Shown one piece after another: positions 4,402-56,778 of a stretch of 64,000 nt of DNA. A program made the position numbers and the translations under genes. Source of the DNA: Mobula birostris (Eukaryota). The first letter of the stretch is position 1. Each line of letters starts with the position of its first letter. The stretch is taken from positions 28,502,752 through 28,566,751 of the forward strand of contig NC_092394.1 of assembly GCF_030028105.1 (NCBI RefSeq), written 5' to 3'. The notes beneath the pieces were generated by a model that worked only from the letters and a program-made list of their open reading frames with translations, was not told the DNA's origin and searched no databases.

Positions 4402-4507
4402 CTGAAGTTACTAAACAGGTAAGATTGTGAGCTATCAGGTTCAGTTTCAAAATTTACCTTCAGATATTGTTTTGCTGCCCTGTGAAAGAAAATTGAAAAC
4501 CTGAGAG

Positions 4508-4585
4508 CAACACACATCAAAGTTGCTGGTGAACGCAGCAGGCCAGGCAGCATCTCTAGGAAGAGGTACAGTCCTCGTGTTTGCG
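4508..4585. mobile_element. Penelope pseudo-LTR mini-insertion with internal inversion
   Basis: Flanked by a 14-bp TSD tgaaaacctgagag (4494-4507, 4586-4599). Body matches the pLTR of the element at 52466-53211. Confidence 0.85.
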
Positions 4586-5854
4586 TGAAAACCTGAGAGT
4601 TAGGTTCCTTGTAAAGTTTTCATTCTTCTAATTGCTAACTGGCTTGATTTGTGTTTCTGATGTTTATTATTAACCAGCTATAATCTTCCTAATAATCTAT
4701 TGGTTTCCTGTAAAACAATGCCTCTTTTTAAAAAAGTTTTCAACCTTGTTTTCAATTCGATTCCAGGATCTCATTCTTTCCTACATCATAGTCTCCTGCA
4801 TCCTTGTATCCTGTGAATATCAGTATCCTCAAATATTAGCCTTTTGGATATCATTTCTGGTATTATGTGCCCTCAATCATTGGAACTGTTTTCTTGGAGT
4901 CTATCTGAGCCTTCTATTTTGATTTCTCCTTTAGCACACAAACCTGCCCCTTTACCAAATATTCAGATAGCTAATGATAGGTCAGTACCAGTTTTTGCCT
5001 ATAATGTACAGGCAAATTTTGATTTTTTGAGTGATCAGTCTTTTTTTAATTTTATTGAGATACTATGTTAGTTACGTCATTAATATTTGTGGTCTTGGTG
5101 TGTGTATTTTGAATGTTACATTGGCCCACATCACAAGTGTCAACTTTTAAAAATCTAATTTACTAGAAAATACTTAGGAATACCATAACAGCTACAATAG
5201 ATATGTAGTTTTTTCCCCTCTAAATGTTTTACAAGAAAGGAACACACTTATCGACGTGCAGAAGGCAAAGAAACAATTTAAAAAAACAGTTTACTTAATT
5301 CTCTCTTGTGAGATTTGTCAAACACTTTCTATGCTTTTCCAGTGGTGATATGCATGCATCCTGCAACCACTGACTCACTCTGTTATGCCACAGAAGATCT
5401 TTTCAGGATGTGAAACATTACTAAACAAGGCAGCATTTACAGACTTGATGGTTAAATCCCTCCATTGACTTCTCTTTTATCAATAGTGCAGCCTGAGTGA
5501 GCTAACAGGAAACAGGACAGCTGCAAGCAGGCAGTCAGGAAGTGTGTTGTTGTCATTACTCTGTTGTTTTCCTTTGTGATGGTGAGAACAGACTGGAATA
5601 TTATGGTTTACCTTCCCTTCCCATTCAAATGCACAGTTTTTTATTGGTGTTGTTCCCGAGCTCTATCACTGTGAGTGATAACAGTCATGTAGATTCCATG
5701 TGATATGTGGACACAGCACTATTCATGGTCTAAATAACTTGATGTAAAATATTACTTATTCATGCTCATGTAAAATGTTGATAATCTGACTTTTCACGTG
5801 ACCTGTAATCTTTTTCAAATCAATCCTGATGCACCACACCACAATTACTTTTTA

Positions 5855-6876: not shown

Positions 6877-7022
6877 TCAAAACAACACACATAAAAATTG
6901 CTGGTGAATGCAGCAGGCCAGGCAGCATCTATAGGAAGAGGTACAGTCGATGTTGCTGGCCAAGACCCTTCATCAGGACTAACTGAAAGAAGAGGTAGTA
7001 AGAGATTTGAAAGTGGCAGGGG
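6877..7022 (-). mobile_element. Penelope pLTR fragment inside the Gypsy element (degraded hammerhead)
   Basis: Matches 52500-52645. Confidence 0.85.
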
Positions 7023-15392: not shown

Positions 15393-15943
15393 ATGTACTC
15401 GGTCTTTTTAGTGTTCAGGTGAAGTCCAACTTTATTGCACACAATTTCCACTTTTGTCAGTAGCTGCTGTGCTTCCTCCATCTGGTCAGAGAGCAGGACT
15501 ATGTCATCTGCAAAATCGAGATCTGTGAGCGTAACTGGTCTGACCCTTTTGGTTTGTCCTGGTTTTATGGTAAAACCAAGCTTGTCATGATCTTTGATAG
15601 CTTGACGTAGAGCGTAATCAAGGACGATTGTAAAGATGCCAGAGTGTCTCCTTGCAGCACTCCAGCTAGGAGCTCGAACACTGCTGTTTCTCCATCTGGT
15701 GATAAACTTTCACCATGGTTTTGGTATAGCCGGACTCTATTGCTCTCAGTAAATGGTCTGGCACTCCGTAAGCTTTCAGGATCTTCAGCATCTTACCTTG
15801 GTGATTGGAGTCAAACGCTTTGCAAAAATCGATGTAAGTAATCACGGCTGGTAGGTTGTTCTTCTTGACTTCCTCGATGATCCTACGGAGAGCAAGTATT
15901 TGCATTACTGTTATGCGCTTCTGCCGAAAATCATTCTGATTGA

Positions 15944-16235
15944 CTCCTAGCTGGAGTGCTGCAAGGAGACACTCTGGCACCCTACATCTTTATAATCGTC
16001 CTTGATTACGCTCTGCGTCAAGCTACCAAAGATCATGACAAGCTTGGTTTTACCATAAAACCAGGACGAACCAAAAGGGTCAGACCAGTTACGCTCACAG
16101 ATCTCGATTTTGCAGATGACATAGTCCTGCTCTCTGACCAGATGGAGGAAGCACAGCAGCTACTGACAAAAGTGGAAATTGAGTGCAATAAAGTTGGACT
16201 TCACCTGAACACTAAAAAGACCGAGTACAATGGCG
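15944..16235 (+). repeat. Inverted duplicate of RTE segment 15393-15673
   Basis: ORF 15956-16279 (+) encodes the same LQGDTLA...FADD...KKTEY block that is read on the minus strand at 15393-15665. Confidence 0.95.
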
Positions 16236-18469
16236 GTGCGAATCTGGTTCAAGATCATCCGATTGTAAAGCTTTGCTAAGATACAGGTCAAGCTGATACC
16301 ACAGTAGTTATCTGTCTTCGTGAGGGATCCAGGCTTGGGGACTGGGATAATGTTTAAGACTGACCACTGTTCTGGTTTGTCGCCTTTCATCAGTGCCATA
16401 TTACATATGTCCAGCAGGATGTCGTCCAGGTCGCAGTTCTTCAGGACATCTGGTGGTATCCCATCTGGACCAGCACTCCTGCCCTGTTTGAGTGCATATT
16501 TGGCCTTCTTCAGTTCCTCAATGGTGAATGGGCCGTCATCGATGTTGACTTGCGTTAGTATCATGGGTTTGTCCTCTTCTTCTTCCATGATCGTTGGAGG
16601 GCTTCCCAGCAGGTTCTTAAAGTGGATAAACCATGTCAGGACACAGTCCTCTGCTGTTTTACCACTTATTTGACCTGATGGGGACTTCTTCCGTCTACTG
16701 ATCTCGTTGACTAGGCGCCATGCTTCTCCATGCTGCTTGTCTTCATTAGCAGCCCCTACCTCTCTAATCCTCTCAGCTAGTTCCTCTTCATTCGGTTGGT
16801 CGTAGGTGGCAAAGAGATTCTTCTTTGCTGTCTTGAACTTGTCTCTTAGCTGTTCTGTTTCACTCCTTCTAAGTTCGGCATGCATGATAAGCATGGACCA
16901 CACTTCTTGCTGCAACGACGTCAGGATGTTTCGAGATTCGACTCTTCTTGATTCGCTTCACAGTAGGCAAACTCTTTGTTGCATCTGTGTGTGTGTCTAT
17001 GAGCCGTTGTTAGCGGTCGGTGGCAGTCTCTTCCTCCCCCCTTTCCAGTGGGCCAAAGCGATTTCTCACCTCCACTGTGTACTGGGCTTGAAGAATAGTT
17101 TGTGAGGAGAATGCCTTCCAGTCTACCTTCTCCTTGGGACCTGTGGCTTTGGGTTGCCGCAGGCTCAGTCTCACTTGCTCTGTGGTCAGAACTGACCGAG
17201 TTGAAGGTGCTGTAGGCTTCTGTGTTGATCACACAATTACGCCATTTTGTTCTTACGAGGATGTAATCGAGCTGTTTCCAGTAGATGGAGGCTCTTTTTT
17301 CGTATGTCCACAGTTTACCAGCTCGCTTCTTGAATTGTGTGTTGGTGACAATGAGACTGTGTTCCTGGATGAAATCAACTAGATATTGTCCATTTCTGTT
17401 GGTAAAGTCTTGGTATGAGTATGGAACATCTTCCAGTCCGACCTGGGCATTAAAATCGCCGAGCACAGCCAGGAAGTTATGTGCCGGTATTGAAGTGACA
17501 GCTTTGTGAAGTTTACTGTAGAAGCCTCCACCTCCTTCTCTTCACTGCAGTTGTGCGAGGAGTAACAGATGATGACAGAGGTCGCTGGGTTTCCGTCAAA
17601 TTCCGCAGTAAGGATTCTGTCACTGACTGAGACTACGCCCCTCAGTGCCTCCTTCGCCTTGCGGCTCAACATCAGCCCTACTCCACCTTGTGCTGACATC
17701 GTCGTCGGCTGTCTCCACGCGGACGAGGTGATGAGGTGCATCCCCTCTACCTCTGTGAACCTTATCTCTTTGTCAGGGTGTACATGACGGTGTTCTTGGA
17801 TCCCCAGGATGGAGATCTCGTAGCTGCTCGCCTGTGATGTCAACTCTGTGCATCGAGGCAAGAGGCGGATGGAGTTTGCGTTGAAGGTTGAGATGATCGT
17901 TTTTACCTTACAACGCAAAAGATGTGCAGTTCACTCGGCCCCCTTGTCGGACTCAACCATCCCCGTGTGGTTTGAGGTTGCATCTTCATACTGCCTGTCT
18001 CGGCCAGGGTCTGGACGTTCCGCAGAGTTCCTGAGCACTCCCGGCTCTGGAAGTACAGGGTTTGTTGGGTTGTCTGTCATTGTAATGCCTTACAAGGTGC
18101 AAAACGAAAGTCTGTATGGCACGCCACTCCTCACACAGACAGTAGGTGGCCGTTGACTCACAAAGAGTTCATCCGCCCTTTGACGGGTTTTGTTTTTAGT
18201 CCTGCTGGGTGCCTACACACCCTCCTCCCTGGTTAACCGAAGTGCACCAGGGGGTGTGCCAGCTGAGTCGCTGACAACCCGACCTGAGACAGGTAATACT
18301 GGGCTGCGTGGCACCTGTAGCAAGGCAAGGCCCTGACCTGACCTAATAGGATACAGCAACAGAAGACCATGAATGTACACTTGGTGGCCAATTTATTAGT
18401 TATGGGAAGTACTTCATAAAATGGCCACTGAGTGTATTTGCCATAGCAGTTAAAACAATGATGGTTTCA

Positions 18470-38254: not shown

Positions 38255-38865
38255 GCCTTCTTCTCATTGCTGTCATCAGGGAGGAGGTACAGAAGCCTGA
38301 AGATCCACACTCTATGTTGTAAGAACAGCTTCTTCCCTTCTGCTATACGATGTCTGAACAGTCAATGAGCACTAGCTCTCAGTTCATCTTTTGCAGGACT
38401 ATTTATTGTAACTAATGGCATGAACATTGACTTCTCTAACTTCCGTTACTGCCCTACCTCTCCTCGTACCCCATCCGTTATTACCCATCCTCTGGGCTTC
38501 CCCCCTTCTCCTTTCTTTCTCCCTAGGCCTCCCATCCCATGATCCTCTCATTTCCCTTTTGCCAATCAACTGTCCAGCTCTTGGCTCCATCCCTCCCCCT
38601 CCTGTCTTCTCCTATCATTTTGGATCTCCCCCTCCCCCTCCCACTTTCAAATCTCTTACTAGCTCTTCTTTCAGTCAGTCCTGACGAAGGTCTCGGCCCA
38701 AAACGTCAACTGTACCTATAGATGCTGCCTGGCCTGCTGCATTCACCAGCAACTTTTATGTGTGTTATTGTAACCTATAGTGACTTCTATGTCTTGCACT
38801 CTCTGCTGCCACAAAGCAACAAATTTCACAACATATATCAATGATAAATAACCTGATTCTGATTC
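38255..38865 (+). mobile_element. Rex1/Babar 3' end split by a Penelope fragment
   Basis: ctgtcatcagggaggaggtacagaagcctg (LPSGRRY-type) and an aataaacctgattctgatt tail. Confidence 0.8.
38413..38764 (+). mobile_element. Penelope-like 3' fragment with mutated hammerhead
   Basis: GMNIDFSNF end of GIY-YIG plus pLTR. 10-bp TSD ttattgtaac (38403-38412, 38765-38774). Hammerhead at 38676-38712 has GAAA changed to AAAA. Confidence 0.88.
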
Positions 38866-39422: not shown

Positions 39423-39832
39423 GATTACAACCCTAAGAATCTGGCAGTCTAAGTACATGGTTTGCAAAAGGCTGGTATATATTTAATGCAACTAATTAAA
39501 AAAAGCTAAGAAGACATTATTGTTTATTGCTGGAGGAAGTGGGTGAGGTGTGCTAGAAGGACTTGTTTCTGTTCTCTGTGGTTCTATACTAAGTAAAATA
39601 GGGAGGTCATGTTTACTTATGTAGGGCATTGGTGAGACCACACCTGGAGAACTGTGTACAATAGTCACCTTATTCAAGGAAGAATGTTAAGGCATTGGAA
39701 ACACTTCAGGAGAAGTTTGCTAAACTAATACTTTGAATAAGTGTTTTGTGAAGAAAAGGTGGATAGGCTATAAGTATTTAAGAAGTATGAGGCAACTTAA
39801 TTGAAGCATACAGTATAAGGTCACAGAGGAAG

Positions 39833-40265
39833 CACACACAAAATACTGGAAGAGCTCCGCAGGTCAGGCAGCATCAATGGAAATGAATAAACAGTTGACG
39901 TTAATGAATAAACAGTTGACGTTTCAGGGTGAGACCCTTCATCAGGACTGAGAAGGAAGGGGGAAGATGCCAGAATAAAAAGGTGGGGAGGCAAGCTGGA
40001 AGGTGACAGGTGAAACCAGGAGGGAGGGAAAGGTCAGGAAGGAATCTGATAGGAGAGGGGAGTGCACCGTAGGAAAAAGGAAGAGGAGACGCAGTGGGAG
40101 GTGATAGGAAGGTGAGGAGAGCAAAGAAGGTCAAAGTAGGGAATAGAGGAATGGGGGGGGGTAATTTTTACCTCAAGGAGAAATCGATATTCATGCCATC
40201 AGATTGGAGGGCACCCAGACAGAATATATGGTGTTGCCCCTCCACCCTGAGGGTGGTCTCAAGGG
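39833..40265 (-). mobile_element. Penelope-like fragment inside an old CR1
   Basis: Minus strand LRVEGQHHIFCLGALQSDGMNIDFS, plus pLTR with hammerhead at 39913-39950. Confidence 0.85.
39913..39950 (-). ncRNA. Minimal type I hammerhead ribozyme (variant)
   Basis: CAGUC-CUGAUGA-AGGGU-CUC-ACCCU-GAAAC-GUC-AACUG. Core intact, with one mismatch in helix I next to the cleavage site. Confidence 0.65.
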
Positions 40266-51245: not shown

Positions 51246-52566
51246 AGGTAGGTTGGAACACTAAATTGTGTGAGGTGAAATTGTGAGTCCCCAGTCTGCT
51301 AATTCTGTCTTGCAGAGTTGGAACAGAAACAGAATGATAATCACCTCTCCTGGATGATTTAAGAGAGGCGTTTGCAATGGTCAGGATGATGAAGAATGGA
51401 GGGATGATGAGCCCTTAAGCAGTTAATCCCAGTTATGAGTAAATGGAAAAGCATCTTTGCAGTAAAGACAGGAACTCATCAGTGTAAAAATTGAAGTGAA
51501 TATATTTAAATAATAAACTCAAATGAAATTAGTTTTAGTCAGCCACAGGAACAGGAGGATCTGTGACATCATACCATTGTACTAATGTCCCAGTTAACCT
51601 TGGCAAAGCAGCAGATGGGAATAAAAAACATGATAAGAAAGAATGCTTTAACTAAAGAACTTCCACTTTCTTGACACCCTGTTCATCATTTATCGTCTGT
51701 AATGTGAAGAACTGCCTATTCAACAGAGTAAGGAAATCAGCTTTCTAATTTAAAATAATTCCTTGCGGAGTTAAGTGTGAGGCAACAGATTTAGCCAAAA
51801 CAGGTGGAGCCTATTTTATAATTACTTTTATGATAAGAAGTAACTCCATTTCAAGTGAGTATTTTATTATAGGCTGGTTATTTGATGTTTGTTATACTGC
51901 ACATCAATAAGACTCAAAATTCATCTTTCAAAGAAAATCATTTGCATTCTTCAGATTAGAGTCATGGTTAAAATGATAATCCATTTAAAATGAATTACTG
52001 TAAAATAATTCTTGAGCATGACAAATGAAATTGCTTTCAATTCTTACAAAGCAGATGAGTCTGAATGTTGTTTTCCATTTTATCACCTTGCTAACCATGA
52101 TAAGCTGCCTGATTCCAGCAGGCACTTTTTAAAGGTTCCAGCAGATTCTCAGGATCTCAATGATGTGGCTGTTCTTCACATACAATACCAGACAGTAGCT
52201 AGTCTTCTCCTGGCCCTGCTGGTGCTCTTCTTGTAGCTCTTCAGCTTGCAATACACAGCTGACATCACTGCTGAGCGTGTTCCATGGGAAGTGACAAGAA
52301 AGCAGGTGCTGAATCTAACCTCACCCTATGCACTTCCCCGATGGCTTTTTGGCAGCTCAGGCTGTGTAAGACTTCTACCTTCCTTCCTCTCTATCCAAAC
52401 AACCCTGATGATCACAGACATTGAGAAACATTTCAAAAAAGCTTAATTGATCCAAAAATATAAGTCCGCAAATACGAGGAAATCTGCAGATGCTGCAATT
52501 TCAAGCAACACACATAGAAGTTGCTGGTGAACACAACAGGCCAGGCAGCATCTCTAGGAAGAGGTA

Positions 52567-52604
52567 CAGTCGACGTTTCGGGCCAAGACCCTTCGTCAGG
52601 ACTG
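52567..52604 (-). ncRNA. Minimal type I hammerhead ribozyme, intact
   Basis: CAGUC-CUGACGA-A-GGGUCUUGGCCC-GAAAC-GUC^GACUG. Perfect 5-bp helix I, full catalytic core, palindromic ACGU helix III. Confidence 0.85.
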
Positions 52605-52910
52605 ACTGAAAGAAGAGCTAGTAAGAGATTTGAAAGTGGGAGGGGGAGGGGGAGATCCAAAATGATAGGAGAAGACAGGAGGGGGAGGGATGGAGCCAAG
52701 AGCTGGACAGTTGATTGGCAAAAGGGATAAGAGAGGATCATGGGACAGCAGGCCTAGGGAGAAAGAAAAGGGGCGGGGGGGGGAAGCCCAGAGGATGGGC
52801 AAGGAGTATAGTGAGAGGGACAGAGGGAGAAAAAAGGAGAGAGAGAAAAAGAATACACACACACACTATATATATATAAAATATATATGATACGAGGGGG
52901 AGGTGGGGCA

Positions 52911-53211
52911 TTAATGGAAGTTAGAGAAGTCACTGTTCATGCCATCAGGTTGGAGGCTACCCAGATGGAATATAAGGTGTTGTTCCTCCAACCTGAGTGT
53001 GGCTTCATCTTTACAGTAGAGGAGGCCGTGGATAGACATGTCAGAATGGGAATGGGACATGGAATTAAAATGTGTGGCAATTGGGAGATCCTGCTTTCTC
53101 TGGCGGACAGAGCATAGGTGTTCAGCGAAACAGTCTCCCAGTCTGCGTCCGGTCTCGCCAATATATAGAAGGCTACATCGAGAGCACCAGACGCAGTATA
53201 TCACCCCAGCC
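52911..53211 (-). pseudogene. GIY-YIG endonuclease domain of Penelope-like element (5'-truncated)
   Basis: Open frame with VIY-YIG motifs and the conserved R, H, E and N positions. No RT domain upstream. Confidence 0.88.
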
Positions 53212-53222
53212 AAAATATAAGT

Positions 53223-56639: not shown

Positions 56640-56778
56640 AACAAGAAAAAATCTGCAGATGCTGGAAATCCAAGAAACACACACAAAACATTGGAGGAAC
56701 GAAGGGTTCCAGCCCGAAATGTCATCTGTATTCTTTTCCTGTCTGCTGAGTTCCTCTAGCATTTTGTGTGTGTTGCAG
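56640..56778. mobile_element. Fold-back Penelope pLTR remnant
   Basis: acacacacaaaacattggaggaac ... gttcctctagcattttgtgtgtgt inverted arms around a partial hammerhead (gaagggttccagcccgaaatgtc). Confidence 0.75.

What the first reader, a model, noticed from the sequence alone, without database searches (positions are those of the whole stretch)
4494..4599. 78-bp Penelope mini-insertion whose inversion junction sits at the hammerhead cleavage site
Seen: between 14-bp TSDs, the insert has an inverted pLTR piece (4508-4573) ending ...ggtacagtc, joined to the element's extreme 3' end ctcgtgtttgcg in the opposite orientation. Compared with the intact copy (52466-52604), the inverted piece stops at the base following the GUC^ scissile bond, within a 2-nt 'tc' microhomology. 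Established: Penelope pLTRs carry minimal hammerheads, and twin priming yields TSD-inverted part-3' part-TSD structures. Inference: this is a genomic fossil of the ~105-nt 3' self-cleavage product being reverse-transcribed to its ribozyme-made 5' end. That would mean the minimal hammerhead cleaves in vivo in the germ line and generates its own class of tiny mobile RNAs.
Basis: partly seen in the sequence, partly recalled or inferred. Interest (0 to 1): 0.7.

Follow-up and report, generated by a model that had tools for sequence, protein, structure and literature searches.

The report
Penelope mini-insertion ending at ribozyme cut
This 78-base insert is an ordinary two-armed stub of a very abundant Penelope-type jumping gene, and its arm likely stops at the predicted ribozyme cut by chance, because most sister copies run through that site; but rare head-to-tail chains of the same element restart at that bond, which likely means the ribozyme does sometimes cut in the germ line.

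Summary
Observation confirmed: a 14-bp target-site duplication flanks a 66-nt inverted arm (ending 0 to +2 nt after the predicted hammerhead cut) and a 12-nt tail. This is the textbook Penelope-like (Neptune-type) structure: 60 of 64 two-armed copies pair a tailed with a tail-less arm. In eye-scored genome-wide listings most arms read through the cut and pile up at -36 to -28, likely the RNA start. Ends joined to AT-rich flank show no excess at the cut (3-5 of 97); neither does the finding's own class (3 of 23). The excess in unfiltered joins (18 of 83) falls to 6 of 71 without three joins that use the ribozyme's own complementary sequence. No separate class of tiny mobile RNAs was found. However, following a lead from earlier scan notes (same and other genomes), 12-13 of 38 head-to-tail duplications and 8 of 11 multi-unit arrays restart at the cut; the same assay peaks at -37 to -31 (47 of about 71). 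A minority of transcripts is therefore likely cleaved in vivo; a hairpin stall is the rival. This copy alone proves nothing.

The parts
4494..4507 (+). left target-site duplication, 14 bp
   Evidence: identical to 4586-4599; 14 bp is the modal TSD length of the family, 19 of 52 called TSDs
4508..4573 (-). inverted arm: pLTR positions 0 to +65, starting at the tail-less 3' end and stopping 0-2 nt after the predicted hammerhead cut
   Evidence: 62 of 66 identical to 52506-52571
4572..4573 (.). 2-nt microhomology at the arm-arm junction
   Evidence: read from the sequence
4574..4585 (+). sense arm: last 12 nt of the element's tail
   Evidence: 11 of 12 identical to the reverse complement of 52467-52478
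4586..4599 (+). right target-site duplication, 14 bp
52467..53213 (-). reference copy: 3' end of GIY-YIG coding region, pLTR and tail; 5'-truncated
   Evidence: Pfam GIY-YIG E=0.003, below the curated cut-off
52567..52604 (-). minimal type-I hammerhead motif; predicted cut between 52572 and 52571
   Evidence: motif scan, fold; architecture as in PMC4209133
52599..52607 (-). positions -36 to -28: main pile-up of 5' ends and of head-to-tail restarts, likely the RNA start

Best explanation
The insert is a very short two-armed copy of an abundant Neptune-type Penelope-like retroelement, likely made when both ends of a 14-bp staggered cut each primed reverse transcription, one at the tail end and one at the tail-less site 37 nt upstream, and the two cDNAs were then likely joined through a 2-nt microhomology. 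Shown: the structure, the TSD, the tail/no-tail pairing in 60 of 64 copies, and where 5' ends fall. Inferred: most templates are uncut RNAs starting at -36/-32/-31, probably the transcription start; this copy's stop at 0 to +2 is most likely an ordinary truncation (I put the chance that it came from a cleaved RNA at about 25%). Inferred at family level: a minority of RNAs is cut at the hammerhead site, and the reverse transcriptase running off that end sometimes jumps back and repeats, leaving head-to-tail arrays that start at the cut.
For: Family is a PLE: RT and GIY-YIG ORFs lie upstream of this pLTR in L156 and L115. Two-armed copies: 60 of 64 tail plus no-tail, 4 no-tail pairs, 0 tail pairs (P about 4e-14 against independent 50:50). 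Inverted truncated copy plus optional 30-40 bp tail is the published PLE pattern (PMC8557442, PMC3846280, passages), and two internal initiation sites bound the tail in vitro (PMC11167929, parts 1-2). 5' ends read through the cut in 79 of 98 and 74 of 98; 34 of 99 fall in -39..-28 with 14 at -31; 18-19 of 59 arms in the position-blind sample fall in -39..-20 against 8 in -260..-40. No excess at the cut for AT-rich-flank ends or for the finding's class. Restarts: 12-13 of 38 loci and 8 of 11 multi-junction arrays include the cut (P about 7e-5 and 2e-7); the same assay gives 47 of about 71 loci at -37..-31.
Against: Unfiltered joins show a real local excess at the cut, 18 of 83 over 20 positions (P about 1e-7); attributing 12 of them to microhomology is an interpretation, and they could also be cleaved-RNA ends that join easily. 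The exact junction of the finding occurs at two other loci, whose flanks I could not fetch. Position +7, with no ribozyme role, takes 8 of 38 restarts, though only 1 is multi-unit. An inactive fold has an inner hairpin (-8.5 kcal/mol) whose base is at -1 and could stall the enzyme at 0. Most histograms are eye-scored from the first 100 listed matches, the lists overlap in part, and both arms of one insertion can appear.
Confidence: 0.7

Rival explanations
1. One reading: this copy was made from the about 104-nt 3' self-cleavage product, copied to its ribozyme-made 5' end, and such products are a class of tiny mobile RNAs.
For: Arm end interval includes 0; same junction at two more loci; 18 of 83 unfiltered ends at 0; head-to-tail arrays show that 0 can act like an RNA end.
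Against: 3 of 23 in its own class, equal to -1, +5 and +9; 3-5 of 97 and 0 of 98 in flank-enriched lists; 2 of 58 other arms at -1/0 in the position-blind sample. In about half of the first 100 exact-0 ends the partner arm itself read through the cut to -18, -26 or -32.
Confidence: 0.25
2. No cleavage in vivo at all: every excess at the cut, including the array restarts, comes from RNA or cDNA structure (stall at the base of the inner hairpin, stem-I complementarity), with arrays expanded later at DNA level.
For: Inner hairpin starts at -1; +7 restarts near the base of the outer helix; PMC11167929 found no RNA-seq reads ending at the cut in Anolis and no need for cleavage in vitro.
Against: 5-6 restarts at 0 are blunt or carry an untemplated base and their 3' ends vary from +30 to +43; multi-unit arrays are enriched at 0 (8 of 13 loci against 3 of 25 elsewhere, Fisher P=0.003) as they are at the -36..-31 ends (7 of 11).
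Confidence: 0.3
3. The -36..-28 pile-up is not a transcription start but a splice-acceptor or structure effect, since a branch-point-like motif, pyrimidine tract and AG lie just upstream of helix I.
For: Motifs seen in the sequence; in D. virilis Penelope the intron ends at the 5' end of helix I (PMC4209133, part 2).
Against: No shared upstream exon: of 41 held copies ending at -37..-28, 25 join an inverted arm, 15 map to nothing in the element and 1 to adjacent sense sequence. Restarts centre on A-36 and A-32, each in an initiator-like YYAGT context (consensus recalled, not from a call), and 6 of 11 restarts at -31 carry an extra G.
Confidence: 0.25

Closest known systems
Endonuclease-positive Penelope-like element insertions with inverted 5'-truncated pLTR, optional tail and TSD (PMC8557442, PMC3846280; passages read)
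   Same: Inverted truncated copy head-to-head with a sense copy, tail on one end only, TSD, microhomology at the join; full-length relative L156 has inverted copy, pLTR, RT ORF, GIY-YIG, pLTR.
   Different: Extreme shortness (66 + 12 nt). The near-strict tail/no-tail pairing and the map of 5' ends are quantified here; I did not see them in the passages read.
Anolis Poseidon PAc in vitro (PMC11167929; parts 1-2 of 4 read, supplements not seen)
   Same: Two initiation sites bounding the tail, both target strands cleaved and extended, predicted dimer, uncut RNA as dominant template.
   Different: This family has the Neptune-type CX4CXXC linker. That paper found no in vivo reads at the cut; here rare genomic arrays restart there.
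Minimal hammerheads of metazoan PLE pLTRs (PMC4209133; parts 1-2 read)
   Same: Type-I core, no loop III, palindromic 15.2-16.2 positions, predicted dimer.
   Different: Activity of this sequence is untested; that paper states there was no in vivo evidence.
L1 twin priming
   Same: TSD - inverted part - 3' part - TSD with microhomology at the inversion point.
   Different: Twin priming uses non-overlapping parts of one RNA and a variable internal site; here the second site is fixed and arms overlap in 62 of 64 copies (8 of 9 in the position-blind set).
R2 elements whose 5' junctions record the ribozyme cut (PMC3774820; passages read)
   Same: Precedent for reading an in vivo ribozyme cut from genomic junctions and tandem duplications.
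   Different: In R2 the cut defines the main template end; here it defines at most a minor one.
Non-LTR retrozymes (bioRxiv 10.64898/2026.07.22.740005, part 1 read; PMC7229834, listing only)
   Same: Tandem repeats derived from PLE pLTRs.
   Different: Retrozyme units contain the ribozyme; the arrays that restart at the cut contain only downstream sequence, and the finding is a single insert.

Membership tests
EN+ Penelope-like element | RT followed by C-terminal GIY-YIG endonuclease upstream of the pLTR | tested here: met
   L156 and L115: Pfam RVT_1 (E 1e-3, 8e-5, below cut-off) and GIY-YIG (E 7e-5, above cut-off in L156); tested on sister copies, since the insert is non-coding
EN+ Penelope-like element | pLTRs in partial tandem with adjacent inverted truncated copy | tested here: met
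   L156 structure; 64 two-armed copies
EN+ Penelope-like element | optional 30-40 bp tail at one end | tested here: met
   3' ends at about +60..+73 or +89..+103; 60 of 64 pairs have one of each
Neptune/Nematis clade | CX2-5CXXC zinc-finger-like linker between RT and EN | tested here: met
   CX4CXXC in L115 ORF; definition from PMC8557442; no phylogeny built
Minimal type-I hammerhead | CUGAnGA and GAAA core, stems I and II, NUH site, no loop III | tested here: met
   Rfam has no match at E<=1
Minimal type-I hammerhead | self-cleavage (as dimer or protein-assisted) | not testable with these tools
   only indirect genomic evidence; the computed lowest-energy monomer fold is not the active one
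L1-type twin-priming product | arms from non-overlapping parts of one RNA, variable internal priming site | tested here: not met
   this copy's arms do not overlap, but its internal site is the family's fixed site and 62 of 64 sister copies overlap
Independent family of cleavage-product mini-elements | many copies with 5' end fixed at the cut | tested here: not met
Non-LTR retrozyme | tandem units each carrying a hammerhead | tested here: not met
   single insert without the catalytic core

The most novel reading that the evidence does not exclude
Head-to-tail restarts in this family are a genomic map of the RNA ends used in the germ line: a main capped start at -36/-32/-31 and a minor end exactly at the hammerhead cut. 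The minimal hammerhead therefore cleaves in vivo, and the telomerase-related reverse transcriptase, on running off the cut end, jumps back or rolls round a small ligated circle to make arrays of up to about 25 units; each insertion is built from two cDNAs started at two fixed sites, likely on two RNAs held by a dimer.
Probability: 0.55. Interest if true: 0.7.

Novelty: new member of a known kind. Interest (0 to 1): 0.47.

Why it matters
What the minimal hammerheads of Penelope-like elements do in cells is stated as open in PMC4209133 and PMC8557442, and PMC11167929 found no in vivo reads at the cut. A genome with on the order of 100,000 young copies (47 insertions in 1.22 Mb) lets junctions stand in for RNA-end mapping. 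The result is that uncut RNA is the normal template while a rare array class points to real cleavage, and it names exact positions (-36, -32, -31, 0) for end-mapping in gonad RNA. The 78-bp insert itself is ordinary.

Tried and rejected
RNA evidence: no RNA holder listed on record; the four runs laid were contigs, which cannot show ends; no conclusion drawn. Rfam: no hammerhead match. Multi-copy family of the exact insert: the top 41 matches were the insert itself and, for the 29 others inspected, copies running on through the cut with a point change; rejected. Count at -32 (2254) against count at 0 (219): not comparable, because the first pattern is not subfamily-specific; not used as evidence. 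Cap-templated extra G with TSD context: not tested, flanks of the listed copies were not available; held loci were inconclusive. Spliced upstream exon at -34/-30: not found. 36 of 160 requested sampling stretches did not exist, leaving 124. One arm at -36 is cut by the edge of its stretch. Literature searches gave no paper whose listing reports genomic breakpoints at a PLE hammerhead cut; most subscription papers are not in the library, Lunse et al. 2017 was seen only as a citation, and no supplements were read.

Full report
Coordinates. Element positions are given relative to the predicted hammerhead cut: 0 is the first base after GUC (window 52571 in the reference copy, 4573 in the finding). 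Counts marked eye-scored come from the matched text that pattern searches list (first 100 matches unless stated); a script check on rows 1-30 agreed exactly at 27 of 30, and on rows 1-30 gave the same five ends at 0.

Observation. The TSD (4494-4507, 4586-4599) is a perfect 14-mer and the insert is 78 bp. Its first 66 nt are the reverse complement of positions 0 to +65, 62 of 66 identical to the copy at 52468-52870; the last 12 nt are the tail end in sense orientation. A 2-nt overlap leaves the arm end at 0, +1 or +2.

What the element is. The reference copy runs back into a GIY-YIG coding stretch and is truncated near 53213. L156, from the position-blind sample, holds an inverted truncated copy, a pLTR with tail, a 1001-codon frame with RT motifs, a GIY-YIG frame and a second pLTR. 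L115 has RT and GIY-YIG in one frame with a CX4CXXC linker, the Neptune/Nematis mark in PMC8557442. 47 young insertions in 1.22 Mb of 124 position-blind stretches give about 150,000 copies, an order-of-magnitude figure.

The two-armed structure is the family norm. Among 64 distinct head-to-head insertions in all held loci, 60 pair a tailed arm with a tail-less arm, 4 pair two tail-less arms, none pairs two tails; TSD length peaks at 14 (19 of 52 called); arms overlap in template by more than 10 nt in 62 of 64, and 8 of 9 in the position-blind set (most loci were selected by an anchor in one arm, which inflates overlap but not the pairing). The published description of PLE insertions has the inverted truncated copy and the one-sided tail (PMC8557442; PMC3846280), and the Anolis protein initiates at two sites bounding the tail and extends both target strands (PMC11167929). 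The finding is such a copy with an unusually short tailed arm. I infer two priming events, likely on two RNAs.

Filters requiring non-element letters upstream, with a fixed anchor at +15, sampled 5' ends. (5089 matches): of 98 ends, 79 lie upstream of the cut, 30 in -36..-30, 4 at 0, 15 in +1..+15; 2 internal deletions dropped. (580): 74 of 98 upstream, 24 in -32..-30, 0 at 0; 2 dropped. (6567): 21 in -75..-40, 34 in -39..-28 (14 at -31), 23 in -27..-16, 7 in -15..-1, 1 at 0, 13 downstream; 1 dropped. The lists share some loci. In the position-blind sample 18-19 of 59 arms end in -39..-20, 8 in -260..-40, 18 run beyond -260, and 3 end at -1/0, one being the finding. The main stop is thus the front edge of helix I, on uncut template.

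Zooming on the cut. (1899 matches) gives 18 of 83 ends at 0 over 20 positions, a real excess; 17 internal deletions dropped. Twelve of the 18 are three join types using the ribozyme's own complementary or repeated sequence, with partner arms ending at -32, -18 or -26; the same three types make up about 51 of the first 100 exact-0 ends (eye-scored; 30 loci inspected). Without them 6 of 71 remain (P=0.14). With AT-rich upstream sequence, which favours joins to flank, 0 has 3-5 of 97 against a mean of 3.9 (3 dropped). In the finding's own class, a body arm joined within 30 nt to a tail fragment, all 23 matches were listed: 3 end at 0 (the finding and two loci with the same junction), 3 at -1, 3 at +5, 3 at +9. 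So nothing singles this copy out as a cleavage fossil, and no family of cut-started mini-elements appears.

A rare class that does point to cleavage. Earlier scan notes gave the lead that head-to-tail repeats restart at the cut. One search listed all 68 such junctions within its limits, in 38 loci. In 13 loci the restart interval includes 0 (one ambiguous with -4); 5-6 are blunt or carry an untemplated base, 6 have 1-2 nt of overlap. About 2-3 would be expected. Eight loci restart at +7, mostly through C-rich overlap. Of 11 loci with two or more junctions, 8 restart at 0, with unit ends from +30 to +43 (one of the 11, L178, shows its second junction); the others restart at -5, -6 and +7. One array has 18 listed junctions over about 1 kb. 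As a positive control, (127 matches, first 100 listed, about 71 loci after collapsing arrays and apparent duplicates) puts 47 restarts at -37..-31, centred on A-36 and A-32/G-31, and 7 of 11 multi-junction arrays there. Restarts therefore behave as markers of template ends, and the cut is a minor one of these. The rival is a stall: the lowest-energy fold has an inner hairpin whose base is at -1, and arrays could have grown at DNA level. R2 gives a precedent for reading a ribozyme cut from junctions (PMC3774820).

RNA data. No run was on record as RNA and the contigs laid cannot show ends, so the transcription start and the cleavage remain inferred.

Verdict. The insert is a new, very short member of a known kind. 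The broader claim of in vivo cleavage is more likely than not (about 55-65%) on evidence from other loci, which this scan had already noted in this and other genomes and which I re-tested here. Interest 0.47.

Noticed in passing
window 56649-56774: Two-armed insertion of an older, related pLTR family: inverted tail end followed by a sense arm starting inside the hammerhead.
   Followed up: partly
window 6880-7022 (-) and 38481-38769 (+): Tail-less young copies ending at +65..+69, 5' ends at about -74 and -231 or beyond.
   Followed up: yes
window 39824-40256 (-): Older-family copy with an intact-looking hammerhead and a short head-to-tail duplication that restarts at about -6.
   Followed up: no
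window 52606-52625 (-): Branch-point-like motif, pyrimidine tract and AG directly upstream of helix I, where the D. virilis Penelope intron ends; no spliced copies found among 41 held copies.
   Followed up: partly
G000:C29:27758977-27759931: About 1 kb array of a 38-nt unit starting bluntly at the predicted cut, on the window's own contig.
   Followed up: partly
L156 2820-7898: Near full-length element (inverted copy, pLTR with tail, RT frame, frameshift before the endonuclease, pLTR).
   Followed up: partly
G000:C17, six loci between 33.9 and 85.0 Mb: Identical head-to-tail junction restarting at -25, confined to one contig in the listing; duplication or a propagated variant.
   Followed up: no
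window 15394-15672 and 15944-16229: 286-bp inverted repeat, 96% identical, arms about 270 bp apart.
   Followed up: no
window 18373-18439: Palindrome matching Rfam mir-9256 on both strands at half the gathering score; more likely a small inverted repeat than a microRNA.
   Followed up: no
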